Positions 3,474 to 61,514 of a DNA stretch of 61,678 bases are shown here, piece by piece. The notes beneath the pieces are model-generated. The model made no database searches and was not told where the DNA came from. It saw nothing but the letters and a program-made list of their open reading frames with translations. The translations under genes were made by a program, and so were the position numbers. The stretch lies in the IMG/VR virus record IMGVR_UViG_3300029713_000009; one strand, 5' to 3'. Source of the DNA: a virus. Position 1 is the first letter of the stretch. Each line of letters begins with the position of its first letter.

Positions 3474-3548
3474 GCTCCCTTAGCTCAGTTGGTCGAGAGC
3501 ATTCGCCTCATAAGCGAGAGGTCGCCGGTTCAAGCCCGGCAGGGAGCA
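3474..3548 (+). tRNA. tRNA with CAU anticodon (elongator Met or Ile2), not initiator-like
   Basis: GCTCCCT/AGGGAGC acceptor (1:72 paired), GCTC/GAGC D-stem, TTCGC-CTCATAA-GCGAG, GCCGG-TTCAAGC-CCGGC, A73. Confidence 0.88.
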
Positions 3549-3604
3549 CGCTTCACCCTAACGGGTGCTTATTCAATCAGAAAATCAGTCACAATTTACA
3601 AAGC

Positions 3605-4035: not shown

Positions 4036-4872
4036 ATGGAATCAAGCAGTTACGAGGTACTTCCAGTAGAAAGCCATGAAGTACAAATTTTACAGGTAGA
4101 TGCGGTTGAGAGAGCAAACGTGGACTCACAAGTTGCGACCGCGAAAAGATATCCTAGGGATATCAGAAGGAGTATTGATAATTCCGTGGTAATGGCCACG
4201 ATGAATCAAGACACGGCAAGGTCATGCAGTTATGCCTTGCCAAGAGGAGGGAAACCTATTACTGGGCCATCCGTACACCTCGCCAAGATAATCGTATCCA
4301 ATTGGGGTAATATCAGGACTGAGGCCAAGGTTATCCAGATAACGGACAAGCAGATCATCAGCAGGGGTACATGCTGGGATCTGGAGACAAACGTAGCGTC
4401 CGCGTTCGAGGTTCGCAGGAGCATAGTGGATAGCAAGGGGAAACGTTACTCAGACGACATGATTACCGTAACGGGAAACGCCGCCAACTCCATAGCTTAT
4501 CGCAATTCCGTATTCGCCGTTATCCCCAAGGCCATAGTGGACAGGGTCTATCAAGCCGCCCAAAAATTCATCACGGGGGATCTATCCGACGCTGACAAGA
4601 TATTAAAAACGAGAACTAATATCATCAACAAGTTCAAGAACGAATACGCCATAACGGAAGAGGAGGTCATTAAGCTATGCGGCAAACAGACCAGCAATCA
4701 GATAGGCCCCGACGAGATCGCCATGCTGATCGGGATCATACAAGCGTTAAAGGACGGGGATACCACGGTAAACGATCTAATCCTTCCAATTCGTGAGACA
4801 AAGAAAGATGTCGATCAAAAAAAGGAGGCGATGAGACAGTCTAAGGGCAAAAACAAAGAGGACATGCCATGA
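4036..4872 (+). CDS. Putative single-strand annealing / recombination protein
   Basis: 278 aa; assignment rests mainly on position, overlapping the start of the downstream PD-(D/E)XK nuclease gene; family not firmly recognised. Confidence 0.4.
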   Translation: MESSSYEVLPVESHEVQILQVDAVERANVDSQVATAKRYPRDIRRSIDNSVVMATMNQDTARSCSYALPRGGKPITGPSVHLAKIIVSNWGNIRTEAKVIQITDKQIISRGTCWDLETNVASAFEVRRSIVDSKGKRYSDDMITVTGNAANSIAYRNSVFAVIPKAIVDRVYQAAQKFITGDLSDADKILKTRTNIINKFKNEYAITEEEVIKLCGKQTSNQIGPDEIAMLIGIIQALKDGDTTVNDLILPIRETKKDVDQKKEAMRQSKGKNKEDMP

Positions 4873-6962
4873 ACAAGTACTCATCCTATACCAACGCCGA
4901 GCTGGAGGAGCATTTATCAAACTACCTTATCGACTCTTGGAGTTACAGCAAGGTAGCCTCTTTCTCCCGGAACGAGAAGGAGTTCGAGAAACGGGAGATT
5001 TACCGGGAAAGATCCAGATCATCCTCCAGCACGGTAGCGGGTAACGCCTATCATTCGGCCTTGGAGTATTTCTTCATGGAGCTACAGCGCAAGGGGCAGA
5101 TAATACCGATCACGGAAATGGAGAGGGTAGCGTTCTCACACATAGAGGAGGTACACCCGAATGATTGGAAGATACAGAAAACGACACCTACCGTAGAGGA
5201 ATGCAAGATCGAGGCCACCAAGAACGCCACGAGGCTTATCAATAACTTCTACGGGGAGAAGGATATCTATCTTTCCGGTATCAAGGAGATAATCGCCGTG
5301 GAATCAAGGTGCGAGGAATGGGTAACGATAAACGGGGTGGACATCCCCCTGCCCTGCCACGCTAGGCTAGACTTGGCGATAAGGACGGAAAGCGGTCGGA
5401 CGGTCATCATAGACCATAAGTCAAGGGCCAAGTTCACCGATGACGAGGAGCTAACGTTTACCTGCGGGAAACAGGCAATGACCTACGTCAAGTGCTATGA
5501 GTCCCGCTTCGGGGAGAATGTTGACGAGGTATGGTTCGTGGAGAACAAGATCTCGAAAAACAAGGACGGCTCCTCCCAGTTGAAGAAATTCGTAATCAAT
5601 CTCGATAACGACACGAGGAAGCTTTACGAGGCCATATTGTACGAGCCGCTAAAAAGGATGATAGAGGCCGTGTCCGATCCGGATTACGTGTACATGATCA
5701 ACGATAGCGACAACTTCGTGGACAGGGCCGAGCTTTATAATTTCTGGGCCAAGACGCTGATAGCGGAGGTCGATGATTTCAACGTGCCCGAGTCAAAGAA
5801 GGAATTGATATCGAAGAGACAGAAAAAAATACGGGACGCTTCCCTTGGATCGGTAAACCCCAAGGTAATATCCGAGTTCAAGAGGAACGCTTCCTCATTC
5901 ATTCAATACGATTTATCCAATAGTAATATGACAAACAGCGAGAAAATAGAACATATCCTACGGACATTCGGGGTGATCGTGAACGTAGCCAAGGAGATTA
6001 ACGGGTACTCGTCAGACACGTATCTGCTAGAGGTATCCGCTGGAACAAAGATCACGACAGTGATGAAATACAAGCTAGACATAGCGAACGCACTGGACGT
6101 GCCATCCATAAGGATGGGTAACGAGCTTATGGTGTATGAGGGAAAATCCTACCTCTCCATAGAATCACCGAAGAAAAGAACCAAGTCCTTGTACTGGGAC
6201 AAGAAGTATATCGACGGCATGAGGATTCCCATAGGAACGGATAACTTCGGAAGGCTCGTGGTGTGGGATCTCGATAACAACTCCACGCCTCACGCCTTGA
6301 TTTGCGGAGCTACCGGTAGCGGTAAATCCGTGTGTATCATATCCACGATAGAATACGCCCGCTTAGCCGGTATCCGGGACATCGTAATTTTCGATCCGAA
6401 ATACGAGTTCTGTAATTATTCCTCCGAGAAATACATAAAGGTCTATAATGATATAGAAGAAATAGAGGCCAAGATGAAAGAGCTCGTACAGGATATGCAG
6501 GAAAGGGCTAAATCGAGGGCATCATGGAAAACGCTGGTGGTGTTCGATGAGTTCGCCGACGCGGTAGCGTCCTCCCGATCGGGAACGGAACTTGACATAA
6601 AGGAAATGGTCGAGGTTGGCCAGCGAAAGAACGCCTTCGGGTTCCTCGAGCCTAAAATGGAACTACGCACGGTCGGTCGTGAAAAGTCATTGGAGGAGAA
6701 TCTGAAGATGTTGCTACAAAAGGGACGATCGCTTGGGTTCCGGATCATGGCGGCTACGCAAAGAGCGTCGGTTAACGTGATCACGGGAGACGCTAAGGTG
6801 AATTTCCCCGTACAGATTTGCTTCCGTGTACCCAAGGAGATTGATTCCAAGGTTGTCCTTGACGAGCCGGGAGCCGAGACGTTAGGCGGCATGGGGGACG
6901 GACTAATGAAATCTCCCGAGTATCTAGGTATCGTGAGGTTCCAAGGTTTTTATAAAAAATAA
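4869..6962 (+). CDS. PD-(D/E)XK nuclease fused to FtsK/SpoIIIE-like ATPase
   Basis: N-terminus: GNAYHSALEYFF..RLDLAI..VIIDHKS. C-terminus: Walker A GATGSGKS, Walker B VVFDEFAD, ATQRAS..VITG..ICFRV..DS..VLD..GAE.L. Confidence 0.7.
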   Translation: MNKYSSYTNAELEEHLSNYLIDSWSYSKVASFSRNEKEFEKREIYRERSRSSSSTVAGNAYHSALEYFFMELQRKGQIIPITEMERVAFSHIEEVHPNDWKIQKTTPTVEECKIEATKNATRLINNFYGEKDIYLSGIKEIIAVESRCEEWVTINGVDIPLPCHARLDLAIRTESGRTVIIDHKSRAKFTDDEELTFTCGKQAMTYVKCYESRFGENVDEVWFVENKISKNKDGSSQLKKFVINLDNDTRKLYEAILYEPLKRMIEAVSDPDYVYMINDSDNFVDRAELYNFWAKTLIAEVDDFNVPESKKELISKRQKKIRDASLGSVNPKVISEFKRNASSFIQYDLSNSNMTNSEKIEHILRTFGVIVNVAKEINGYSSDTYLLEVSAGTKITTVMKYKLDIANALDVPSIRMGNELMVYEGKSYLSIESPKKRTKSLYWDKKYIDGMRIPIGTDNFGRLVVWDLDNNSTPHALICGATGSGKSVCIISTIEYARLAGIRDIVIFDPKYEFCNYSSEKYIKVYNDIEEIEAKMKELVQDMQERAKSRASWKTLVVFDEFADAVASSRSGTELDIKEMVEVGQRKNAFGFLEPKMELRTVGREKSLEENLKMLLQKGRSLGFRIMAATQRASVNVITGDAKVNFPVQICFRVPKEIDSKVVLDEPGAETLGGMGDGLMKSPEYLGIVRFQGFYKK

Positions 6963-7762: not shown

Positions 7763-8496
7763 GTGAGAACAAATTAAATGTGGTTGTACCGAAAGATTAT
7801 AGTGGTGCACCAATCGAAGTAGTATTGAGAGAAGGAAAAGCACCCGTAGCGCTCGACCCGAAAGAACCAACTCCCGTTGGTATTGAAGGAACGATTGACA
7901 GCCCTTTGCGTTGGCTCGAAAAACGAGTGGGGCTTATCGATCAAAAGCGGGCAAATATAACGGTAAACCGTGATGATATGGAAATATCTTTAGTGGACAA
8001 AGAGACTGATTACTATAGAAACCGTATTACTGGAGTATTACAGCCGTCCAAAGAAATGGTTGAGTTTGGTATCAATGCGGAAAAGAAGTGGGAACCTATC
8101 AAGTTATCCAAGTTCTTCAAGATGCATCGTGCCTTCTTCAAGGACAAATCAGAAAACATGACGCTGGTATCTGCCTTGAAAAACTTCAAGGCAAAGGTAA
8201 ACCAAGACATAGAGCGAAGCAAGGAAGAGAATGGCAGCAGAACCGATAACTATTCGCAGGTGGTTGATTCCAATCTCCCGGGGTCGTTCAAGTTGAACAT
8301 CCCACTTTTCAAGGGTTTTGCGTGTGAGGAAATCGAGGTTGAGATTTACGCTGATGTGGACGGAAGAGACGTTTCGCTATCCCTTGTGTCAGCTGGGGCA
8401 AATGAAGCCATTGAGGAATACAAGAATAAAGTGATTGACGAGCAACTGGATGCCATCAGAAAGATCGCTCCAGATATCGTAATAATAGAGATATAA
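7759..8496 (+). CDS. Hypothetical protein
   Basis: 245-aa ORF translationally coupled to the upstream gene. Confidence 0.65.
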   Translation: MSENKLNVVVPKDYSGAPIEVVLREGKAPVALDPKEPTPVGIEGTIDSPLRWLEKRVGLIDQKRANITVNRDDMEISLVDKETDYYRNRITGVLQPSKEMVEFGINAEKKWEPIKLSKFFKMHRAFFKDKSENMTLVSALKNFKAKVNQDIERSKEENGSRTDNYSQVVDSNLPGSFKLNIPLFKGFACEEIEVEIYADVDGRDVSLSLVSAGANEAIEEYKNKVIDEQLDAIRKIAPDIVIIEI

Positions 8497-20536: not shown

Positions 20537-20570
20537 AAAAAAAGCGCCGCCAATTTGTGTTGACGACGCT
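20537..20570 (-). terminator. Intrinsic terminator after the GHKL/STAS cassette
   Basis: Minus strand AGCGTCGTC-AACACAAATT-GGCGGCGCT followed by TTTTTTT. Confidence 0.7.
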
Positions 20571-20588
20571 TATTGTTGTTTAAACCTT

Positions 20589-20795
20589 TCAAACTAAAGG
20601 CATATACAACGCTTGATTTTTATGGTTGGTACTTTTTATTTCTACCGGTTCCACCTGTTTCCAATACATGCATTGTAGCGTGTTTGGACTAGATATATGT
20701 TTCACTTTATTTCTATCTGAGTATTTATCAAAACTATTCCTTTCTAGGAATTCATCATACTCCTTGGCTATTTTTGGTTCATCTAAATTTTTCAT
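20589..20795 (-). CDS. Small hypothetical protein, third gene of the GHKL/STAS cassette
   Basis: 68-aa version (MKNLDEPK..) of ORF 20589-20894; the longer form would overlap the upstream gene. Confidence 0.4.
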   Translation of the reverse strand: MKNLDEPKIAKEYDEFLERNSFDKYSDRNKVKHISSPNTLQCMYWKQVEPVEIKSTNHKNQALYMPLV

Positions 20796-20826
20796 ATCAT
20801 TCTCTTTTATATAACATGGAATAATT

Positions 20827-21186
20827 TTATATGGTAGACAGGAACTCTGACAATGAATCCATGTCCGAAAATTCTTTAACCTCACTGTCCTCATGCATAT
20901 TCCTCGGTTTATTTCTATTGCCTTTTACTATTTTCATCATCAGATCTATAGAGTCGCACTCATTTTCCATAGATACCCTCACTTTATCTAAGGCCAATGC
21001 CTCTATTGTATTGCATAACTCATCCGCAAATGATCGAGACATAAAGTATACATCCTTAAAATCAATGCGTACACATGGACTATTCAAATCCTTAGCCCTC
21101 ATATAGATTTTTTTAGCTTCTGTCCTAGAACGAAGCTCTCCCCTTATCAATTCTGATATCACAATTGTCTTTTCCATGACCTTCAT
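20827..21186 (-). CDS. STAS-like (DUF4325-type) protein
   Basis: ..RSRTEAKKIY....VRIDFKDVYFMSRSFADELCNTI.. matches the DUF4325 pattern (DF.gV..iS.SFaDE); ATGA overlap with the ATPase gene. Confidence 0.6.
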   Translation of the reverse strand: MKVMEKTIVISELIRGELRSRTEAKKIYMRAKDLNSPCVRIDFKDVYFMSRSFADELCNTIEALALDKVRVSMENECDSIDLMMKIVKGNRNKPRNMHEDSEVKEFSDMDSLSEFLSTI

Positions 21187-22118
21187 TCTAAATATTCATA
21201 AAAATTAAACATCCTTTCCTCTTTATATGGTATCCTTAATGCCACTATAGTTCCATCCCATTTTATATAATTAGGAAGTCCTATATATGATGTCTCTTCC
21301 TCAGACATAAGATGAAACGCTTGCCCAGACAGCAAAAAATATGTTCCTCCAAGTCCCTTAGACAACATTCTCTTGCAAGTACTTATACCATAACCACGAT
21401 TCTCGGTATCTGGCAAATTTTTAGTCGATATACCCTTTCCAGCGCTTTTTAAAGCCTCCACATCATTAGTTATACCTTCTTTGCCAGATTTGACATAACT
21501 TCCCAGTATACTTATACCATTATCCGCTATGCAAATGTCTATATAGTTCTTTGACGGATAATACTGAGCAAATATATAACCAAATTCACTCTCTGAATGT
21601 TCAGATATATTGTCTATCGTTTCAGTCAGCATATAAGATAAAGCCTTTCTCAACTCTCCTTCAATATTTAGTTGCCTTATCATTATATTCTCCGCAACAG
21701 ATAGTATATCGTTTTTTATACTATCCTTGCTCTTACATCCCGGGAACTTTATTATAGGAATATATTTTTTCATAGAAAAATATTCCATATAATTATGAAA
21801 ATCACCTACATCGGCTGCTACTACACCTCCCTCGAAATGAATAGAGTCAAGATAGCTTTTAACACTATCCGATATATTCCTGCAAACCACATTCTTACCG
21901 CATTTATCCCGATAAAGCATAAGAGGCAATAAGAAAAATGGAGTCACAAATGCCGTATATTGGAAGTTCCATATGAAATCATCATCATCAGAATTCTCCA
22001 TTTTCAAGATTATCCTGAATAAATGATTAAAGGCTTCTCCTATCCTAATATCATTTACCGCATGTGGCATATATATTTCCATAATGCAACTTTTCGTATA
22101 CAACAAAGCCTCTGCCAA
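21183..22118 (-). CDS. GHKL (Bergerat-fold) ATPase, anti-sigma-factor-kinase-like
   Basis: N-box ETIDNISEH, G1 ADNGISI, G2 NRGYGIST; ~150-aa N-terminal domain of unknown type; start uncertain (ATG at M13 or M17 possible). Confidence 0.65.
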   Translation of the reverse strand: MAEALLYTKSCIMEIYMPHAVNDIRIGEAFNHLFRIILKMENSDDDDFIWNFQYTAFVTPFFLLPLMLYRDKCGKNVVCRNISDSVKSYLDSIHFEGGVVAADVGDFHNYMEYFSMKKYIPIIKFPGCKSKDSIKNDILSVAENIMIRQLNIEGELRKALSYMLTETIDNISEHSESEFGYIFAQYYPSKNYIDICIADNGISILGSYVKSGKEGITNDVEALKSAGKGISTKNLPDTENRGYGISTCKRMLSKGLGGTYFLLSGQAFHLMSEEETSYIGLPNYIKWDGTIVALRIPYKEERMFNFYEYLE

Positions 22119-22235
22119 GGCTGGTTACTTGACGAGGCTATAAAAATCACCTTTTGTTCCGCAAAGGTCGCACAAAATTTTGTTATATGAAAATTTTTTC
22201 ATAGACAAATCACATGTCATATAACATAACACGCC

Positions 22236-22532
22236 TCAGACCGTACCGGATAGCTCCTCTTTAACACTCTCCACCGTCCTCCTCAAATAGTAACTCCTCC
22301 TTATCCTGTCCGGGTACAAGTTACGCATCCTGTTGACCGCCTGCCTCGTCATCCCCGTCAGATCGGATATGATATTGTCGCTCAACTTGCGATCGGCCAG
22401 TATCGTTATAGCCACTCCCCTAGCGTCAACATTGCGCTCCTTGTTGTTGCTAAACATCATTACCGGATCGGTCCCGCACTCCTTGCATACCGCCTCTATC
22501 ACTTTCTTGTAAAAAATTTCAACCTTATTCAT
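22236..22532 (-). CDS. Small HTH protein resembling the DnaA C-terminal domain
   Basis: 98 aa; ..KERNVDARGVAITILADRKLSDNIISDLTGMTRQAVNRM.. Confidence 0.45.
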   Translation of the reverse strand: MNKVEIFYKKVIEAVCKECGTDPVMMFSNNKERNVDARGVAITILADRKLSDNIISDLTGMTRQAVNRMRNLYPDRIRRSYYLRRTVESVKEELSGTV

Positions 22533-22737: not shown

Positions 22738-23217
22738 TCACCCTCTATTTTTAATGATCCACCATAACATGGCCGCAATCATTCCTCCTACCAACAGATA
22801 CCACCATACCCTAGGATGGATAAGCCTCGTTTCCTTATCCACGTTTATCGTTTCTCTCTCATCGGTAACTACCGTCTCATTATTTGTCCTCACCTCTGTC
22901 ATATCAGATCCGGACGAAACGATCTTCTCGCCTGATTCCTCTCGCTCCTTTCCTATGGTTATATCGGATGTCTTGACAGGATATATGTTCCCCACGCTGT
23001 CTGGAGAAGACCACTCCACGACCAAGATCCGGGCGCTCAATCTCTCGTTAGATAATATCCGCTCTATGGCCGAAAGGCTGTCTTTTTTAAAGATACTATC
23101 CGATAGACTGACACTTGTAGTGGCATGCCTCTCCGTATCCGTGGATTTCTTGGAAGTTCCACAGGCACAGAGAAGGCATAACAATATGACGAACCATATT
23201 TTCATAGTAGATTCCAC
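22738..23217 (-). CDS. Unimolecular spanin candidate (lipoprotein with C-terminal TM)
   Basis: MKIWFVILLCLLCAC lipobox-like signal (likely start at 23205) and C-terminal VWWYLLVGGMIAAMLWWII; last gene of the lysis cluster. Confidence 0.5.
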   Translation of the reverse strand: MESTMKIWFVILLCLLCACGTSKKSTDTERHATTSVSLSDSIFKKDSLSAIERILSNERLSARILVVEWSSPDSVGNIYPVKTSDITIGKEREESGEKIVSSGSDMTEVRTNNETVVTDERETINVDKETRLIHPRVWWYLLVGGMIAAMLWWIIKNRG

Positions 23218-23612
23218 CCTGCTATAACATCCGACATATCGGCCTCCCTCCCATTCTCCACCTTGCTCATCCCGGCGACAATCCGGGTCATTTGCTCACG
23301 ATCATTCAAATTGATAGGATCATCAGCCGGGATGCCGGCATAATCGGATACGGCCTTAATGTAGGCCTCCGTATCATTCTCGTTTTCCGGCGCCCAGCGA
23401 CCTATCATCTTGCGGATCGTGTCAAGTTTATAGTTTCGATAGTAGTTCGACAAGATCTTAAAGATCGCCCGATAGCCATACGTCATCATCTCGAACTGCT
23501 TAAACGATTTGTCCTTGCTCGGTCTAACCTCGCCTTGAAATAGATCGCTGTTGATCCGGATGTTTCCGGGGTTACATAGACGCAACCCTCTCGGTAATTT
23601 TTTCTCTGCCAT
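23202..23612 (-). CDS. Endolysin candidate (NPGNIR family, often annotated structural protein P5)
   Basis: ..RGLRLCNPGNIR..F..F....YGYRA....L..Y......TIRKMIGRWAPENEND.. ; sits between holin-like genes and the spanin candidate. Confidence 0.45.
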   Translation of the reverse strand: MAEKKLPRGLRLCNPGNIRINSDLFQGEVRPSKDKSFKQFEMMTYGYRAIFKILSNYYRNYKLDTIRKMIGRWAPENENDTEAYIKAVSDYAGIPADDPINLNDREQMTRIVAGMSKVENGREADMSDVIAGWNLL

Positions 23613-24500: not shown

Positions 24501-27500
24501 TTAATAATTGATTTTTTTAGTAGTAATATCAATAAGATTAGATGTATTAGTTTTTATTAGTATATCTCCATCTAGATCAATGCCATCAGATGTAAATTTA
24601 TGCTTTCCCTCAGATATAATAAGAGGGTTAATGAATTTTCTTGTTTTATCAAGAAAGCCTGTTAAACATTCTCCATTACGGAAATATCCTGTTGTCCAAT
24701 GGCCAGCAGCTTGAGAAGAAGTAACGAATTCTTTATGAAGAATTTCCCATGTTAATCCCATGTCTTTACTAACAAGAATAGAGCAATGTTGTGGTCTTAT
24801 TGCGTCTTCTGGATAAAAATTCACAACACTATCATGATAATTTTGCCAATCTCTAACCGTATTAGCAGATTGAGTATCTTTCCAATTTTGAAGAACTTCG
24901 CTATCCGATATAGCTTCAATAGGAGGAAAATAACTCAAAGCATTAACTGAACTATCTATCTTAGTAAATGCGTATATATTATCAGTTACATCAGATTGTC
25001 TAATGGCAAATACTGTATTAGCCCATATCCTTGATACTTTCCTATGTGTTTTATCATCAGAATAAATTAAATCTATATCACAATGGAAAGGACCATCACT
25101 ACCAACAAGAATTCCATATGGCGTTGCTAACATTGCTGAGCCTTTAACTGTTAATGTTATATTCAAATCTATCCAAGTATTTCCACCATCAACAGATTTA
25201 AAAATAGTATTAACTTCTCCAACAATAACGTATAATGAGCGATTATACTTATTGAATATAATAGAGTGTATATGTCTACCATTAGATGTATATCCACTGT
25301 CATTAAAATTAATAATGTGTTTCCATGTATCTCCACCATCTGTAGACTTATATATCGAAGGATTTTCATGACTTAATGAATATACTCCTGCATATAAGTT
25401 TCCTTTATCATCTTCACAAAAAGTCCATACGGTATCTCTATTATCTTCTGATTCTGTAGGTATATCAGAATTCGGATTGTACAATTTAAGAACTTGTTTA
25501 AAAGACGAGTCTCCATATTTTAGCTTATAAACCCCTCTTTCAGAAGAAGATATGTTACTATAAGAATCGTATGGAGATATGAATACATTTAATTTCGAAT
25601 CCATATAAACTCCTCTCCAATCAGTAGCACCAGATATATTAAGAAGTTCCGTTTCACCATCGTATCCTATTTTAACAACTTTCCCCCCACTTCTTGTAGC
25701 AATAATTTCTCCATTAGGGTACATTACAGCATTCACTATATAATTATCTGAACTTTTAGTATCTCCTTGATATACTAAAACTCCTTCTTTGGCTTCATAA
25801 GCAATAGGAACACCTGTTACATTCTCTTTAAAATAAACATTAACATTAGAAGTATTATCATTGCTACTTTTAAATAAATATTTCCTACAAGTGTTTCTTA
25901 CACTATTTGTAAAACTTATAGCAATATAACAATCTTCTATAGCTGTATATGTAAATTTTCCGAAAGCACCATTCCCCGCAGCAACAGATTTATAAAATGT
26001 ACCATTTTCATCAGTAATTGATATGATAGAATGAACATTGCTTCCACCTGCATTAACTATAATCGTTTCCCCTTTTAATAATTTTATAGGAAAAGAATAA
26101 GATACATCAGAAGTGCTTGATTTATAAACATTCCCATTTATGTTAATATAATAACCTTCAGTTAGACTTAAACTTATATCTTCTATTAGATCTCCAATAC
26201 GAGATTCTGCATTGTAATTTTTCAAAAAATCATACAATAGTCCGCCTTTTAAAGAAATACCATCTCGATATAACAATATGATTTTACCGTTTTCATAGAA
26301 AGATCCATCACTGTATTTTGATTTTTGAATAGTTACTAAATTATCTGTAGTTCCTTTATACGGAGCGTCATTTAAATCAACAAAAATAGCTTCAAAATCA
26401 TTTAACGTAATTTCCAATCCATTTTCATCAGCAATATAAAAATTTTTTTCATCATTAAATATTCTAATAGTTCCAAAAGTTTTAACATAAGATTGAGTTG
26501 AACTTTCTTTGATAATATTGGCAGACTGTTGTGTTATTATATAATTATAAACAAAATCTTTAGATTGAGCATTTACTAATAAGCCATTAACAACCTTATG
26601 ATTATCTCTATAAGCTAAAACTATTTTATTTTCTAAAGAATCTAAATGTTCATAAAAGTCAATTTTAATTTCTTGCAAATTATCCATCTTTCCAGAATAA
26701 TTAGCTGGTATATCAGAAATATCCACATAAGCTATTTGAAAATCATTCAAGGTAATTCTTTTTAAGCCTTCAGAATTAATATAAAAACTTCTATTATTTC
26801 CAACGAATAATCTCACTACTCCATACATATCCACATTAGAAGAATCAATAAGATTAACAATACCAATTTTATGTTTAGTTATTAAAAAACTATTTTGGTT
26901 GAAATTTTCTTTTTGTTCTTTTAAACGAATATGATTATATATACAACCTCCAGAGACATTTGTTTTATTACGATAAAATAGTACTAATATATCTGGAGTA
27001 AATATAAAAGATCTATCTGTATAATTAGATTTTTGTATAGGTATAGGTTTATCTTGGTCATTTCTAAAATTCTTAGGATATAAAGATAAATCTATATAAA
27101 GAGCTTCAAAATCATTTAATTCGTAAGTTATATCACTATCCCCCACGATATATAAAATTCTATTTTGACTCAAAGCTATTCTGCAATGTTTGGATAATTT
27201 AATAGTCGATTTATCAATTCCATCCGTTATATGCGCATTAGAGTAAGTAACAAATACTTCTTGATAACAATTATTTATAATATTAGTCACCTCCCCCCTC
27301 AAGCTCGTCTCCCTCGCGTCCGTGTCAATCCACGGTTTCGAGGAATGGGCTTGCGTAAACTCATATATACGCCCATCCTTTCTCACGATATCTCCCGCAT
27401 TGTACACTCCTTTATCGGAGAATTCTGGGAACTCGTCTATACCGGTAGCCATGTTTGTAGAATAAGTATCCTTTATCACGTTTCCCTTGTCATCCTTCAC

Positions 27501-27710
27501 CGCTTGTATCGCCATGTCAGCTGAGGTCTTAGGAGTCTCATAATTTACTTGGGATGACTGATCTCCCAAATGGACAGCGTCACCATCCACCTCTCCTATT
27601 CCCTCTGATACATTTTTAAAATTACTGTTGATCTTATCGACCATCTGCGCCCCGTTATCCGGAGTCTGACCATTTCTATTATCTTTGATGGGTTGTATCG
27701 TTATAGCCAT
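24501..27710 (-). CDS. Tail fibre / tailspike 1 with BNR (sialidase-like) beta-propeller
   Basis: Asp-boxes STDGGDTW, SVDGGNTW, SKDMGLTW; N-terminal YEFT..H....WI.TDARETSLRGEV shared with fibre 2; three ~120-aa internal repeats. Confidence 0.65.
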   Translation of the reverse strand: MAITIQPIKDNRNGQTPDNGAQMVDKINSNFKNVSEGIGEVDGDAVHLGDQSSQVNYETPKTSADMAIQAVKDDKGNVIKDTYSTNMATGIDEFPEFSDKGVYNAGDIVRKDGRIYEFTQAHSSKPWIDTDARETSLRGEVTNIINNCYQEVFVTYSNAHITDGIDKSTIKLSKHCRIALSQNRILYIVGDSDITYELNDFEALYIDLSLYPKNFRNDQDKPIPIQKSNYTDRSFIFTPDILVLFYRNKTNVSGGCIYNHIRLKEQKENFNQNSFLITKHKIGIVNLIDSSNVDMYGVVRLFVGNNRSFYINSEGLKRITLNDFQIAYVDISDIPANYSGKMDNLQEIKIDFYEHLDSLENKIVLAYRDNHKVVNGLLVNAQSKDFVYNYIITQQSANIIKESSTQSYVKTFGTIRIFNDEKNFYIADENGLEITLNDFEAIFVDLNDAPYKGTTDNLVTIQKSKYSDGSFYENGKIILLYRDGISLKGGLLYDFLKNYNAESRIGDLIEDISLSLTEGYYININGNVYKSSTSDVSYSFPIKLLKGETIIVNAGGSNVHSIISITDENGTFYKSVAAGNGAFGKFTYTAIEDCYIAISFTNSVRNTCRKYLFKSSNDNTSNVNVYFKENVTGVPIAYEAKEGVLVYQGDTKSSDNYIVNAVMYPNGEIIATRSGGKVVKIGYDGETELLNISGATDWRGVYMDSKLNVFISPYDSYSNISSSERGVYKLKYGDSSFKQVLKLYNPNSDIPTESEDNRDTVWTFCEDDKGNLYAGVYSLSHENPSIYKSTDGGDTWKHIINFNDSGYTSNGRHIHSIIFNKYNRSLYVIVGEVNTIFKSVDGGNTWIDLNITLTVKGSAMLATPYGILVGSDGPFHCDIDLIYSDDKTHRKVSRIWANTVFAIRQSDVTDNIYAFTKIDSSVNALSYFPPIEAISDSEVLQNWKDTQSANTVRDWQNYHDSVVNFYPEDAIRPQHCSILVSKDMGLTWEILHKEFVTSSQAAGHWTTGYFRNGECLTGFLDKTRKFINPLIISEGKHKFTSDGIDLDGDILIKTNTSNLIDITTKKINY
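27288..27334. repeat. 47-nt island shared by the two fibre genes, copy 1
   Basis: 46/47 identical to 47525-47571. Confidence 0.9.
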
Positions 27711-60245: not shown

Positions 60246-61460
60246 TTACTTTTCATCCCTGTTTTTCCGGTAGCCATTGACGTAATCTATAACCTTTCGG
60301 TTGGCTTCATCCACTTTTTTTTGGTCATAACGTATATATATGGAAGTAATGGAAGATCCTATCTCATGTCCTAAAGCGGCGGATATCGTCTCTTTGGGAA
60401 TATCAAGCTCAGCGGCTATGGTAGCCCACGTATGGCGGGCCCAGTATGAGGACAAATCCGGGAATAAAGCTTTGATATACTTCTTTCCACCACGCCCTTT
60501 TCGCTCACATTCACCTATTTTTTTCAAGCCTAAGCCCATCCTGTGCATAAAATCCTTATAATAAGCGTATTCATTCAATACATCTATGAGATATCCATCA
60601 CCCTTATACCTATTTATTATTTCCAACGCCTCAGGCTCTACTTTAACCGAATATAATTTATCAGTCTTTGCCCTCCTGTACTCTAGCCTATCCCCATTTA
60701 ACTTCTTTGCAGAAAACAAATCTATACCATTAATACCTATGAGATAAAACATTAGCATGAATATATCCCTGTATTTTGTTTGATAACCCTCGCAAGGATA
60801 ATCACGTAACATTATCAACTGCTCCACGGTCAAAGACCTTTTACGGGTTTCCTCTGTTTTAATAGAGAACTTCCTGAAAGGATAATTCTCTGTCACACCC
60901 TCATCTATGGCATAATTAAATACCGCTCGCATGTTTCTCATATGTATCGAACGTGTATTAGTGCTAAGACCTGCCTTTATCATATAGCTATCAAAATCCA
61001 TTAACCATTTCTTATCTATACTTCCAAACGAAGGGTCACCACCGAAATCCACGATCTTGGCCTTACTTCCTTCATATGTCTCAATAGTACTTCTTTTTTG
61101 CTTGGTAGCTATAAACTCATCGAAGCAGGTCAACAATGTCCTCTCAGCCCTAGCCTTGCTTGATATGGCCTCCTCTATCATTTCTTTTAGAATAGAATCC
61201 GTGACGCTTTTTAGCTTATCCTCCCTTTCAAGCTTATATATAACATCCTCGGCCTTGTTCATCAACGAGCGTATCGTCATATTTTTGGTCTTATAGTTAG
61301 GCTCGCTCTTAGAGTATTGGTTCACATCCCAGTTCTCCTCTTTAGCGGTGAACTGGGTGGAGATATAAAATCTCTTGTTATGGCTAACATATAGCTTAAC
61401 AGGAAAAGAGCCATCTTTCTTCGCTCTTCTCTTATCTAGGTAAAATGATATATTTCCCAT
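60246..61460 (-). CDS. int: Tyrosine recombinase / phage integrase
   Basis: C-terminal ..WARHTWATIAAE..ISAALGHE..SITSIYIRY (R, H-x-x-R, H, Y); ATG 61460 preferred, since the track start 61502 lies in the arm repeats. Confidence 0.85.
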   Translation of the reverse strand: MGNISFYLDKRRAKKDGSFPVKLYVSHNKRFYISTQFTAKEENWDVNQYSKSEPNYKTKNMTIRSLMNKAEDVIYKLEREDKLKSVTDSILKEMIEEAISSKARAERTLLTCFDEFIATKQKRSTIETYEGSKAKIVDFGGDPSFGSIDKKWLMDFDSYMIKAGLSTNTRSIHMRNMRAVFNYAIDEGVTENYPFRKFSIKTEETRKRSLTVEQLIMLRDYPCEGYQTKYRDIFMLMFYLIGINGIDLFSAKKLNGDRLEYRRAKTDKLYSVKVEPEALEIINRYKGDGYLIDVLNEYAYYKDFMHRMGLGLKKIGECERKGRGGKKYIKALFPDLSSYWARHTWATIAAELDIPKETISAALGHEIGSSITSIYIRYDQKKVDEANRKVIDYVNGYRKNRDEK

Positions 61461-61475
61461 GTCCGGTTTTATTGT

Positions 61476-61514
61476 GTTGCAAATTCCGGGTAAAATTTGC
61501 AACAGATTTGCAAC
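61476..61514. promoter_or_regulatory. Three (A/G)ATTTGCAAC repeats, candidate arm-type integrase sites
   Basis: Inverted copy at 61476-61485; direct copies at 61494-61503 and 61505-61514 (11-nt period). Confidence 0.5.

What the first reader, a model, noticed from the sequence alone, without database searches (positions are those of the whole stretch)
20589..22118. Self-contained GHKL-ATPase + STAS-like (DUF4325) + small-ORF cassette: candidate partner-switching or defence module carried as phage cargo
Three co-oriented genes lie between the lysis genes and an intrinsic terminator (20537-20570), and the first two overlap. The region looks more A+T-rich than its neighbours.
- The 311-aa protein has clear Bergerat-fold motifs (N-box ETIDNISEH, G1 ADNGISI, G2 NRGYGIST), as in SpoIIAB/RsbW-type anti-sigma kinases. 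They follow a ~150-aa N-terminal domain I cannot assign.
- The 119-aa protein matches the STAS-like DUF4325 pattern (VRIDFKDVYFMSRSFADE).

A kinase/ATPase paired with a STAS partner is the logic of partner-switching modules. In a prophage cargo position with its own terminator, it looks like a lysogenic-conversion or superinfection-defence system. I am not aware of an assigned function for this pairing.
Basis: partly seen in the sequence, partly recalled or inferred. Interest (0 to 1): 0.72.

Follow-up and report, generated by a model that had tools for sequence, protein, structure and literature searches.

The report
Phage-carried kinase–STAS phospho-switch pair
Two overlapping genes in a temperate Bacteroides phage encode a sensor-type protein kinase and its small STAS-domain substrate, a stripped-down relative of the DNA-damage-sensing CapK/CapS and VapK/VapS immune switches described in 2026, and they sit in a phage cargo slot that in sister phages holds toxin–antitoxin pairs.

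Summary
The two main genes are real. K (22082–21183, minus strand, 299 aa) has a STAS-like domain followed by a SpoIIAB-like GHKL kinase domain. S (21186–20827, 119 aa) is a DUF4325 STAS protein. The genes overlap by 4 bp (ATGA), are A+T-rich (GC 0.347 against 0.418 for the window), and end at a strong terminator (20571–20542). The third ORF is unstable and specific to this phage lineage, so it is not part of the module.

S follows K in 79 of 79 testable loci, and no third gene is conserved. Profile comparisons link K to VapK and S to VapS (Chambers et al., EMBO J 2026). The catalytic motifs are invariant, and the aligned phospho-acceptor Ser50 is Ser or Thr in 72 of 72 sequences. This form lacks the VapC toxin, the wHTH on S and the HTH on K, so I call it a "K–S-only" variant.

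The same pair is cargo in temperate phages of Streptococcus, Burkholderia, Marinitoga and an archaeon. In sister phages of the window, the same slot holds Panacea-type toxin–antitoxin pairs instead.

Best reading: a kinase–substrate phospho-switch acting as a TA-like or defence moron, with unknown output. This is a new variant of a known kind, of moderate interest.

The parts
21183..22082 (-). K gene: 299-aa STAS-like + GHKL (SpoIIAB/VapK-type) kinase. The ORF formally extends to a TTG at 22118, but the ATG at 22082 fits the homologues.
   Evidence: ORF. 331 homologues of 295–302 aa. Alignment. AF2 model with pLDDT 88.5. hhalign to VapK gives E 8.6e-6 over 264 columns. The K-family HMM hits VapK at E 1.4e-10. 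Variable sites fall 7/5/33 by codon position.
21738..22082 (-). K residues ~1–115: a degenerate STAS-like domain, paralogous to S. It contains F45 (21948–21950), which aligns to the ssDNA-stacking VapK F54.
   Evidence: The S-family HMM hits K residues ~20–80 in most loci, best i-E 2e-7. Foldseek matches RsbS with probability 1.00. Pfam STAS is above cut-off in the K of phages vB_E188 and MPV1. F45 is Phe in 71 of 82 sequences. The acceptor-equivalent position 47 is T/H/S/N, so it is not conserved.
21186..21734 (-). K residues ~117–299: the GHKL (Bergerat-fold) kinase domain. N-box E154…N158…H162 lies at 21597–21623, G1 (D187-x-G189) at 21501–21530, and the ATP-lid/G2 (S219-T-K-N…E-N-R-G-Y-G-I233) at 21384–21428.
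   Evidence: Foldseek matches SpoIIAB with probability 0.98–1.00 and TM 0.68–0.73 normalised to the target, and also matches GyrB and Hsp90. The motif residues are invariant in 82 unique sequences.
20827..21186 (-). S gene: a 119-aa DUF4325 STAS-like protein. It has a STAS core (residues 6–90), a flexible basic linker and a C-terminal helix (109–118).
   Evidence: AF2 model with pLDDT 90.3. Foldseek matches RsbS, RsbV and SpoIIAA. hhalign to VapS gives E 1.3e-5. Family members pass the DUF4325 cut-off. S lies directly downstream of K in 79 of 79 testable loci. Variable sites fall 2/1/11 by codon position.
21019..21039 (-). S motif S50-R51-S52-F53-A54-D55-E56: the predicted phospho-acceptor site. 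S50 aligns to VapS S48. The invariant S52 is the alternative acceptor.
   Evidence: Position 50 is Ser or Thr in 72 of 72 sequences. R51, S52, F53, D55 and E56 are invariant. S50 is the N-cap of helix 51–66 in the model.
21183..21186 (-). ATGA overlap of the K stop codon and the S start codon, implying translational coupling.
   Evidence: Read from the sequence. In other loci the K–S gap ranges from -8 to +28 nt in nearly all cases.
20542..20571 (-). Intrinsic terminator that closes the cassette.
   Evidence: 12-bp stem with 6 G-C pairs, followed by TTTTTTTG.
20589..20795 (-). Doubtful small ORF, 68 aa here. It is not part of the conserved module.
   Evidence: Found only in the BF1-TP2/IMG-VR lineage. 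Its length varies and it is frameshifted in many near-identical phages. It shows no codon-position bias. It has no Pfam, PHROG or PADLOC hit.
22236..22532 (-). Context: a 98-aa HTH (DnaA_C-like) gene that forms the fixed upstream border of the cargo slot.
   Evidence: It is 97–100% identical in 80 IMG/VR contigs, of which 49 carry K–S and 31 carry other two-gene cassettes. Its GC of 0.488 resembles the phage backbone. Pfam gives only weak HTH hits.

Best explanation
K and S form a kinase–substrate phospho-switch of the CapK/CapS–VapK/VapS family, in a minimal 'K–S-only' form carried as accessory cargo (a moron) by a temperate Bacteroides phage.

Shown here:
- K is a STAS-like domain fused to a SpoIIAB-type GHKL kinase domain with an intact ATP site.
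- S is a DUF4325 STAS protein with an invariant Ser/Thr at the position that is phosphorylated in VapS, CapS and SpoIIAA.
- The two genes are translationally coupled and always adjacent.
- No third gene is conserved.
- The cassette is A+T-rich, ends at a terminator, and is polymorphic for presence or absence. It sits in a slot that sister phages fill with Panacea-type toxin–antitoxin pairs.

Inferred from the published homologues:
- K is activated by a nucleic-acid danger signal. This is most likely single-stranded DNA from DNA damage or phage replication, bound between its STAS and GHKL domains near F45.
- K then phosphorylates S at S50 (or S52).
- Phosphorylation makes S let go of whatever it holds.

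Inferred from context:
- The output is a TA-like, abortive-infection or superinfection-exclusion function that benefits the lysogen.
- Because no effector gene travels with the pair, and the conserved surface of S is confined to the phospho-site region, the released or activated component is most likely K itself. K could act as a toxic kinase or as a sequestering, anti-sigma-like factor. The alternative is a host-encoded target of S.
For: **Family membership**
- hhalign of the K family against VapK: E 8.6e-6, 264 collinear columns.
- K-family HMM against VapK: E 1.4e-10 across the full length.
- hhalign of the S family against VapS: E 1.3e-5.
- VapS is itself DUF4325 (E 2.7e-17), and members of the window's S family pass that cut-off.
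- The window's K and VapK both retrieve the Streptococcus prophage and Burkholderia phage genes by tblastn.

**Fold**
- K model, pLDDT 88.5: SpoIIAB probability up to 1.00, and RsbS for the N-terminal domain.
- S model, pLDDT 90.3: STAS fold, with S50 at the N-cap of helix 2.

**Catalytic and acceptor residues**
- Catalytic motifs are invariant in 82 sequences, and F45 is Phe in 71 of 82.
- The acceptor position is Ser or Thr in 72 of 72 sequences.

**Linkage**
- S follows K in 79 of 79 testable loci.
- Only K and S are conserved in the neighbourhoods.
- Downstream genes are co-oriented in 32 loci and opposed in 28.

**Cargo status**
- GC is 0.347 against flanks of 0.46–0.49, and the cassette ends at a terminator.
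- Of 80 contigs of the same phage lineage, 49 carry K–S and 31 carry other two-gene cassettes in the same slot. Of those 31, 19 begin with a SocA/Panacea antitoxin.
- The same K–S-only pair lies beside lysis or integrase genes in Streptococcus phage Javan39, Burkholderia vB_E188, Marinitoga MPV1, Methanothermobacter psiM100 (insert IFa) and Francisella KIRK.
- Bacteroidales relatives lie in prophage accessory regions with HicA, in an integrase + WYL island, beside an SNF2 helicase, and near HipBA.
- Direct neighbours include AbiH ×2, GajB, AriA, a DRT-associated protein and PDC candidates.

**Published mechanism for the homologues**
- ssDNA activates CapK, which phosphorylates CapS S54. VapKSC protects against phage Bas42 and needs VapS S48 and VapK F54 (PMC13373217).
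Against: - No biochemical or genetic data exist for this subfamily.
- Similarity to VapK and VapS is remote. hhalign probabilities are 81–83%, and pairwise identity is about 19–23%.
- The acceptor register is uncertain by two residues (S50 or S52).
- F45 is not invariant, and the lysines predicted to bind ssDNA in CapK are not evidently conserved. ssDNA sensing is therefore extrapolated.
- No effector is identified, so 'defence or TA-like' rests on guilt by location.
- PADLOC 2.0 does not recognise the pair. Its only hit is a partial match to a DrmA model through the GHKL region.
- Many chromosomal neighbours are ordinary metabolic genes.
- Orphan S genes without K exist. S may therefore have a K-independent role.
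- I could not run a complex prediction.
Confidence: 0.6

Rival explanations
1. Classical partner-switching anti-sigma module. K would be an anti-sigma factor that sequesters a host or phage sigma factor. Unphosphorylated S would be the antagonist that frees it. The phage would use the pair to reprogramme host transcription.
For: - The GHKL domain of K is structurally closest to SpoIIAB (probability 1.00).
- S resembles RsbS, RsbV and SpoIIAA.
- No separate effector gene exists.
- The conserved residues of S cluster at the kinase-facing phospho-site. That fits a protein whose only conserved partner is K.
Against: - No sigma factor or PP2C (SpoIIE/RsbU-type) phosphatase gene is linked in the 84 loci or in the Pfam-labelled contexts.
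- K carries the extra STAS domain typical of CapK and VapK. The demonstrated role of those proteins is signal-activated phosphorylation, not sigma binding.
- The pair also occurs in an archaeal virus whose host has no sigma factors.
Confidence: 0.15
2. CapKS-like transcriptional control with the DNA-binding part supplied in trans. S would bind the adjacent 98-aa HTH protein (22236–22532) or another repressor. K-dependent phosphorylation would release it. This would couple DNA damage to phage late-gene or lysis expression, or to prophage induction.
For: - HTH98 lies directly upstream and is co-conserved at 97–100% in this phage lineage.
- CapS is a STAS domain fused to a wHTH, and CapK carries an HTH.
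- The cassette lies at the end of the late/lysis operon of a temperate phage with an integrase and Rha/Ant regulators.
Against: - HTH98 is equally present in the 31 sister phages that lack K–S.
- HTH98 has backbone-like GC (0.488), unlike K–S.
- HTH98 is absent next to K–S in all other lineages.
- S has no DNA-binding domain.
Confidence: 0.08
3. Counter-defence. The phage-encoded S, with or without K, would mimic host VapS or CapS to keep a host VapC-type toxin inhibited or a host immune operon repressed during infection.
For: - vapKSC operons occur in Bacteroidota, for example Prevotella communis (Dataset EV3).
- Phages are known to carry antitoxin mimics (general knowledge).
- Orphan S genes exist.
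Against: - The same K–S pairs are common in chromosomal islands outside phages.
- A decoy would not need a fully conserved active kinase.
- The slot is shared with TA modules, not with known anti-defence genes.
Confidence: 0.05
4. The ATPase is a conventional two-component histidine-kinase fragment or a generic ATPase, and its adjacency to a DUF4325 gene is incidental.
For: Weak Pfam HATPase_c_2 hit (E 0.084). JGI auto-annotation reads 'anti-sigma regulatory factor (Ser/Thr protein kinase)'.
Against: - There is no HisKA/DHp, sensor or receiver domain.
- Co-occurrence with S is 79 of 79.
- Both genes are under purifying selection.
- The homology to VapK is collinear over both domains.
Confidence: 0.02

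Closest known systems
VapKSC toxin–antitoxin/defence system (Chambers et al., EMBO J 2026, PMC13373217)
   Same: - K has the VapK architecture: STAS + GHKL, about 300 aa, no HTH.
- S has the VapS architecture: a DUF4325 STAS core plus a short C-terminal helix, about 116–119 aa.
- The gene order is K then S, adjacent or overlapping.
- A conserved Ser/Thr lies at the aligned acceptor position, and an aromatic residue lies at the aligned ssDNA-stacking position.
- Profile-level homology holds for both proteins.
   Different: - No VapC/PIN toxin follows S here or in any of the 84 related loci, the Pfam-labelled contexts or the other phages examined.
- The S motif is [S/T]RSFxDE rather than ASPFF.
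- Sequence identity is only about 20%.
- The output is unknown.
CapK + CapS regulators of immune operons (same paper)
   Same: The same kinase–STAS-substrate logic and the same superfamily. In that system, ssDNA-activated CapK phosphorylates a conserved Ser on helix 2 of the CapS STAS domain.
   Different: - K lacks the N-terminal HTH.
- S lacks the C-terminal wHTH, so it cannot act as the repressor.
- No conserved immune operon lies downstream.
SpoIIAB–SpoIIAA and RsbW–RsbV partner-switching modules
   Same: The GHKL Ser-kinase fold and N-box/G1/G2 motifs are shared. So is the STAS substrate with its acceptor at the N-terminus of helix 2. These are the best structural matches.
   Different: - K has an extra N-terminal STAS-like domain.
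- No sigma factor or PP2C phosphatase gene is linked.
- The pair is mobile-element cargo rather than a developmental or stress operon.
- Relatives occur in archaea.
Panacea (SocA/PanA) toxin–antitoxin pairs
   Same: They occupy exactly the same slot, directly after HTH98, in sister phages as alternative two-gene cassettes. They are a positional and probably functional analogue.
   Different: There is no sequence or fold relationship to K or S.

Membership tests
CapK/VapK–CapS/VapS kinase–STAS pairs | The kinase has a STAS domain followed by a GHKL kinase domain. | tested here: met
   S-family HMM on K residues 20–80. Foldseek RsbS + SpoIIAB. Pfam STAS + HATPase_c in phage relatives. Collinear hhalign/HMM match to VapK.
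CapK/VapK–CapS/VapS kinase–STAS pairs | Intact GHKL active site, including the Asn equivalent to CapK N218. | tested here: met
   E154, N158, H162, D187, G189, G230 and G232 are invariant in 82 unique sequences.
CapK/VapK–CapS/VapS kinase–STAS pairs | The partner is a STAS (DUF4325) protein with an absolutely conserved Ser/Thr on helix 2. | tested here: met
   Position 50 is Ser or Thr in 72 of 72 sequences, and S52 is invariant. S50 is the N-cap of helix 51–66. It aligns to VapS S48. The register is uncertain by 2 residues.
CapK/VapK–CapS/VapS kinase–STAS pairs | The kinase gene is immediately followed by the STAS gene. | tested here: met
   79 of 79 testable loci. There is a 4-nt overlap in the window.
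CapK/VapK–CapS/VapS kinase–STAS pairs | A conserved aromatic residue for ssDNA stacking (CapK W68, VapK F54). | tested here: inconclusive
   F45 aligns to VapK F54. It is Phe in 71 of 82 sequences and L, T or I in the rest. No ssDNA docking could be run.
CapK/VapK–CapS/VapS kinase–STAS pairs | ssDNA-stimulated phosphorylation of the STAS protein. | not testable with these tools
   This needs biochemistry.
VapKSC | A VapC-like PIN toxin gene immediately downstream of S. | tested here: not met
   - No third conserved gene.
- Downstream genes have random orientation.
- No PIN among the recurrent neighbour families, in the Pfam-labelled contexts, or in 4 other phages.
- The window's small ORF has no family hit.
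- Limit: singleton neighbour families beyond the 25 listed were not shown. A rare PIN neighbour is therefore not excluded.
VapKSC | An S C-terminal segment that reaches into and inhibits the toxin. | tested here: inconclusive
   S has a linker and a C-terminal helix (109–118) with a conserved hydrophobic pattern. No toxin is known. The Javan39 and vB_E188 partners (98–99 aa) lack it.
CapKS | An N-terminal HTH on K and a C-terminal wHTH on S. | tested here: not met
   K begins directly with the STAS-like domain. S is a STAS core plus one helix.
CapKS | A downstream immune operon under its control. | tested here: not met
   A terminator follows the cassette. Downstream genes in other loci are unrelated and are opposed as often as co-oriented.
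SpoIIAB/RsbW partner-switching modules | A cognate sigma factor and a PP2C phosphatase in the operon. | tested here: not met
   Neither is found adjacent in the window. Neither recurs among neighbours in 84 loci.
Two-component histidine kinases | A HisKA/DHp dimerisation-phosphotransfer domain with the phospho-His. | tested here: not met
   No such Pfam hit. The model shows STAS followed by the GHKL domain, with no DHp hairpin.
DISARM DrmA (PADLOC hit) | A large helicase protein with partner DrmB/DrmC genes. | tested here: not met
   The hit covers only model positions 110–249 of 1750, through the GHKL region. The window has no helicase here. A natural helicase–K fusion (P0255) exists elsewhere.

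The most novel reading that the evidence does not exclude
The K–S pair may be a complete, effector-less danger sensor in which the kinase is both sensor and executor. Once ssDNA or another infection cue makes K phosphorylate and shed its STAS 'antitoxin' S, K would itself arrest the cell or the incoming phage, by phosphorylating or sequestering an essential factor. This minimal two-protein switch would be shared as prophage cargo from Bacteroides, Streptococcus and Burkholderia phages to an archaeal virus. Temperate phages might also use it as a RecA-independent read-out of DNA damage.
Probability: 0.3. Interest if true: 0.75.

Novelty: new variant of a known kind. Interest (0 to 1): 0.55.

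Why it matters
The CapK/CapS and VapK/VapS switches were described only in 2026, and only where an obvious output is attached: a wHTH repressor domain or a PIN toxin.

This window shows a large third branch of that family. There are 346 representatives at 50% identity with E ≤ 1e-30, and 1,355 with E ≤ 1e-10. In this branch the sensor kinase and its STAS substrate travel alone. The pair is recurrent cargo of temperate phages in distant bacterial phyla and in an archaeal virus. In one abundant human-gut Bacteroides phage lineage it alternates with toxin–antitoxin pairs at a single hotspot.

That raises a question that can be tested directly: what does the switch control when no effector is encoded with it? 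The answer would show whether the kinase itself is an effector, and whether prophages use ssDNA-sensing kinases for superinfection immunity or for induction decisions. The natural presence/absence polymorphism among near-identical phages offers ready-made isogenic comparisons.

Tried and rejected
- **Three-gene cassette:** rejected. The small ORF is unstable and restricted to one lineage.
- **TTG start at 22118:** rejected in favour of the ATG at 22082.
- **Histidine-kinase fragment:** rejected.
- **PADLOC 'DrmA' hit (E 2e-9):** covers only the GHKL region of a 1750-position model, so it is not evidence for DISARM. The Pfam Med31 and PADLOC MTase_II hits are noise.
- **Variable downstream effector under K–S control (CapKS-like):** rejected. 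Downstream genes are opposed as often as co-oriented and are unrelated.
- **HTH98 as a module component:** rejected. It is present with or without K–S, and its composition differs.
- **Own promoter:** there is no exact Bacteroides -7 box (TAnnTTTG) in the 153-nt region upstream of K. Sigma-70-type matches are at chance level. Independent transcription is therefore unproven.
- **Solved structures:** the K profile found nothing by sequence. The S profile gave only a marginal hit to VapS 9z7o (E 0.15). That hit led to the key paper.
- **Literature:** a whole-word search for 'VapS' returned only unrelated acronyms. No paper mentions BF1-TP2. No follow-up describes a K–S-only form.
- **VapC search:** I did not retrieve a VapC sequence, so I ran no direct tblastn for PIN genes across the loci. 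Absence rests on Pfam labels, clustering and record annotations.
Full report

All three ORFs are on the minus strand at the stated coordinates. K and S overlap by the 4-nt ATGA at 21183–21186. An endolysin (23202–23612; PHROG 873, E 1e-45) and other lysis-region genes lie upstream. A strong intrinsic terminator (12-bp stem, T-run) lies at 20571–20542.

K+S has GC 0.347. The whole window has 0.418, and the flanking gene blocks have 0.46–0.49.

E154, N158, H162, D187, G189 and E227-N-R-G230-x-G232 are invariant in 82 unique homologues.

Three corrections are needed:
- **Start of K.** Homologues are 295–302 aa, so K starts at the ATG at 22082 (299 aa) and not at the TTG at 22118.
- **Third ORF.** It is not a module gene. 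It has homologues only in the closest phage lineage. Among 43 unique near-identical sequences its length is 53–56 aa, or it is frameshifted to 31–43 aa. The window's 68-aa form results from a 1-nt deletion in an A-run. Its variable sites show no codon-position bias (7/5/7), against 7/5/33 for K and 2/1/11 for S.
- **N-terminal domain of K.** It can be assigned (see section 2).

**2. What the two proteins are**

Direct Pfam support for the window proteins is weak: HATPase_c_2 at E 0.084 and DUF4325 at E 0.0068, both below cut-off. The families behind them are large and well defined.

K:
- It has 331 close relatives in the 90%-identity collection.
- A profile search of 1.84 billion representatives found 346 at E ≤ 1e-30, 1,355 at E ≤ 1e-10 and 4,077 at E ≤ 1e-3.
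- The AlphaFold2 model is confident (pLDDT 88.5, pTM 0.89).
- Foldseek matches its C-terminal half to SpoIIAB (probability 0.98–1.00, TM 0.68–0.73 normalised to the target) and to other GHKL ATPases. It matches about 85 residues to the STAS protein RsbS (probability 1.00).
- An HMM built from the S partners hits residues ~20–80 of K in most loci (best i-E 2e-7).
- In the related phage proteins of Burkholderia vB_E188 and Marinitoga MPV1, Pfam STAS scores above its cut-off at the N-terminus, followed by HATPase_c below its cut-off.

So K is a degenerate STAS-like domain followed by a SpoIIAB-type GHKL kinase domain. The acceptor-equivalent position in K's own STAS domain is T, H, S or N, and so is not conserved.

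S:
- Its model (pLDDT 90.3) has a STAS core (residues 6–90), a flexible basic linker and a C-terminal helix (109–118).
- Its best structural matches are RsbS, RsbV, SpoIIAA and RsfB.
- Two members of the S family (P0294 and the L068 partner) pass the DUF4325 cut-off.

**3. Linkage**

I examined 84 loci: 80 species-representative genomes (nearly all Bacteroidales), phage BF1-TP2, and three Butyricimonas contigs. In 79 of them a homologue of S lies directly downstream of K on the same strand. The other five contigs end within 193 bases of the K stop.

Clustering of all neighbouring ORFs found no third conserved gene. After K (83 loci) and S (69 loci), the next most widespread cluster is present in 6 loci. 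Genes downstream of S are co-oriented in 32 loci and opposed in 28, usually with gaps above 60 nt.

The unit is therefore a self-contained two-gene operon.

**4. The known family it belongs to**

The best sequence match of the S profile among solved structures was marginal: 'Escherichia VapS', 9z7o, at E 0.15. A literature search then found Chambers et al., EMBO J 2026 (PMC13373217). They describe two systems:
- **CapK + CapS.** CapK is HTH-STAS-GHKL and CapS is STAS-wHTH. ssDNA-activated CapK phosphorylates CapS Ser54 on helix 2 of its STAS domain. This breaks the repressor dimer and de-represses a downstream immune operon.
- **VapKSC.** VapK is STAS-GHKL (302 aa). VapS is a STAS core plus a short C-terminal region (116 aa). 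VapC is a PIN toxin. VapS is the antitoxin. Phosphomimetic S48E releases VapC. The operon gives about 2-log protection against phage Bas42, and this needs VapS S48 and VapK F54.

I took the VapK and VapS sequences from the authors' AlphaFold 3 model file. The comparisons gave:
- hhalign of the K family against VapK: E 8.6e-6, 264 collinear columns spanning both domains.
- An 85-sequence K HMM against VapK: E 1.4e-10 over model positions 20–284.
- hhalign of the S family against VapS: E 1.3e-5 over the STAS core.
- VapS is a strong DUF4325 member (E 2.7e-17).

The alignments equate VapS S48 with S50, VapK F54 with K F45, and the catalytic Asn with N158. Position 50 of S is Ser or Thr in 72 of 72 unique sequences. 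It sits in an invariant [S/T]-R-S-F-x-D-E motif and is the N-cap of helix 51–66. The register could be off by two residues, in which case the invariant S52 would be the acceptor. F45 is Phe in 71 of 82 sequences.

As an independent bridge, tblastn with the window's K and with VapK retrieves an overlapping set of phage genes: the Streptococcus prophages and Burkholderia vB_E188.

**5. How it differs**

The defining output parts of both published systems are missing.
- No PIN gene follows S in the window, in the 84 loci, in seven Pfam-labelled neighbourhoods, or in four other phages.
- S has no wHTH and K has no HTH.
- A terminator follows the cassette, rather than an immune operon.

I therefore file it in the CapK/VapK–CapS/VapS superfamily as a 'K–S-only' variant. 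It is not a VapKSC or a CapKS system.

**6. Cargo status and context**

The window is a temperate phage. It has a tyrosine integrase (60246–61502), Rha and Ant/Bro regulators, a small terminase subunit and structural genes. It is related to the isolated B. fragilis phage BF1-TP2, which carries the same pair as gp43/gp42.

About 60 IMG/VR contigs carry K at roughly 98% identity. Their flanks are mosaic.

Searching with the upstream 98-aa HTH gene recovered 80 contigs of the same lineage (97–100% identity). Their content in the slot directly after HTH98 is:

| Cassette after HTH98 | Contigs |
|---|---|
| K–S | 49 |
| 422-aa + 71-aa pair of unknown family | 12 |
| SocA/Panacea antitoxin (E 3e-10 to 3.6e-23) + an unknown second gene | 19, in three variants |

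PADLOC does not recognise any of these alternative cassettes. The slot is thus a hotspot for exchangeable two-gene modules, most of them toxin–antitoxin pairs.

The same K–S-only arrangement appears at classic moron positions in unrelated temperate phages:

| Phage | Position of the pair |
|---|---|
| Streptococcus Javan39 | after holin–lysin, near paratox |
| Burkholderia vB_E188 | next to the integrase, near BrnTA |
| Marinitoga MPV1 | next to a serine integrase |
| Methanothermobacter psiM100 | in the inserted fragment IFa; ORFC carries FMSRSF and hits the S HMM at E 3.9e-19 |
| Francisella KIRK | 293-aa + 112-aa DUF4325 pair between the repressor and the integrase |

All four tested partners are DUF4325 above cut-off.

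In Bacteroidales chromosomes the pair lies in several kinds of context:
- prophage accessory regions with HicA toxins;
- directly after an integrase and beside a WYL regulator, in an island inserted at two different sites;
- next to an SNF2 helicase;
- near HipBA.

A census of 133 immediately flanking genes shows no recurrent family beyond integrases. It includes AbiH ×2, GajB, AriA, a DRT-associated DUF1848 protein, NsnB, Vsr, WYL and several PDC candidates, along with many ordinary metabolic genes.

**7. Mechanism**

Shown here:
- the architecture of both proteins;
- intact catalytic and acceptor residues;
- strict linkage, and purifying selection on both genes;
- mobility and hotspot sharing.

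Inferred from the characterised homologues: K is a signal-activated Ser/Thr kinase, the signal most likely being ssDNA. It phosphorylates S at S50 or S52, and phosphorylation makes S release its partner.

Inferred from context: the pair is a TA-like, abortive-infection or superinfection-exclusion moron.

Two points suggest that the only conserved partner of S is K. No effector gene co-travels with the pair. The invariant residues of S (R21, D42, F43, F48, [S/T]50, R51, S52, F53, D55, E56) cluster around the phospho-site. I therefore slightly favour a model in which K itself is the executor, either as a toxic kinase or as a SpoIIAB-like sequestering factor, held in check by unphosphorylated S. 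A host-encoded target of S is the main alternative. Orphan S genes inside a Barnesiella defence island argue that S can act without a cis-encoded K.

My confidence in family membership is about 0.9, in the phospho-switch about 0.75, and in a defence or TA-like role about 0.55. The identity of the output is open.

**8. Rivals**

- **Classical anti-sigma partner switching (0.15).** It fits the folds. It lacks any linked sigma factor or PP2C gene, and it cannot hold for the archaeal relatives.
- **Trans-HTH, CapKS-like regulation through HTH98 (0.08).** HTH98 is also present in phages without K–S, and its composition matches the phage backbone.
- **Counter-defence decoy (0.05).** This does not explain a fully conserved kinase, or the many chromosomal copies.
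- **Histidine-kinase fragment (0.02).** Effectively refuted.

**9. Verdict**

The finding is real and is well explained as a member of a family described in 2026, in a previously undescribed minimal configuration. Novelty: a new variant of a known kind. Interest is moderate (0.55).

A specialist who knows CapKS and VapKSC would not be astonished. The breadth of the K–S-only branch, its recurrence as prophage cargo across domains of life, and the missing output together make a sharp, testable question.

Noticed in passing
L178–L180 (S at 8001–8354 in each locus): An S-family protein (P0294, Barnesiella, 117 aa, seen on 70 contigs) occurs with no K gene within ±8 kb. It sits inside a clear defence island with a TIR protein, an HsdM/Eco57I methylase, a DUF6361 + helicase pair, an OLD/TOPRIM ATPase and Fic. 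It is followed by conserved 51-aa, 180-aa, Metallophos (a possible phosphatase) and DUF6922 genes.
   Followed up: partly
L185–L263, slot starting ~160–190 nt after the HTH98 homologue (e.g. L221:4486–5751, L197:4460–5050, L252:4389–4949): The slot after HTH98 is a cargo hotspot with at least five exchangeable two-gene cassettes. Three of them start with SocA/Panacea antitoxins. One is a 422-aa protein plus a 71-aa protein with no Pfam or PADLOC hit. Its N-terminus (MTAIVGV…AIAADS) looks to me like an Ntn/proteasome-type hydrolase, but I did not test that.
   Followed up: partly
P0255 (1266 aa); L174:9426–11876: A natural fusion joins a DEAD/ResIII helicase to a C-terminal K module. Separately, a K–S pair is followed by a co-oriented SNF2/ResIII helicase + UPF0158. 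Together these suggest a functional link between K-type sensors and helicases. They also explain the partial PADLOC 'DrmA' hit.
   Followed up: partly
L181:2066–2962, L182:2501–3418, L184:2411–3376: The K proteins of Streptococcus phage Javan39, Burkholderia vB_E188 and Marinitoga MPV1 all end in an acidic tail closing with Trp (…EEEEEFEW, …DEEFSW, …DFDEEW). This is reminiscent of SSB-type C-terminal tips. The tail is absent from the Bacteroidales K proteins and from VapK.
   Followed up: no
L183:2183–3314 (NC_002628.3 7090–8221): ORFB and ORFC in the 'inserted fragment IFa' of the archaeal prophage psiM100 are a K–S pair close to the Bacteroides family (K HMM E 2e-34, S HMM E 3.9e-19, same FMSRSF motif). 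They are followed by a 492-aa ORFD with no Pfam hit.
   Followed up: partly
window 22236–22532 (-): The 98-aa HTH (DnaA_C-like) gene is 97–100% identical across 80 phage contigs, while the genes on both sides are mosaic. It marks a fixed recombination boundary and may be a late-gene regulator.
   Followed up: partly
window 22738–23217 (-): A 159-aa predicted lipoprotein with a C-terminal hydrophobic segment overlaps the endolysin stop. It could be a spanin-like lysis component. It is present in only 7 of 61 close relatives, so this too is a variable position.
   Followed up: no
window 21183–22082 compared with IMG/VR relatives: The K reading frame is broken in 4 of 43 unique near-identical phage sequences, while S is intact in all 43. 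This could reflect assembly errors or occasional loss of the kinase.
   Followed up: no
window 24501–27710 (-); 2241–2314 and 3474–3549 (+); 4869–6962 (+): Other features of the phage: a very A+T-rich (GC 0.306) 1069-aa tail-fibre-like gene that is poorly conserved among relatives; tRNA-Arg(CCT) and tRNA-Met genes; and a 697-aa protein combining PD-(D/E)XK nuclease and FtsK/HerA-type ATPase domains.
   Followed up: no
window 22107–22122 (-): A weak terminator-like hairpin lies immediately upstream of the K start. No exact Bacteroides -7 promoter box was found in the 153-nt HTH98–K spacer. Whether the cassette is transcribed on its own in lysogens is unresolved.
   Followed up: partly
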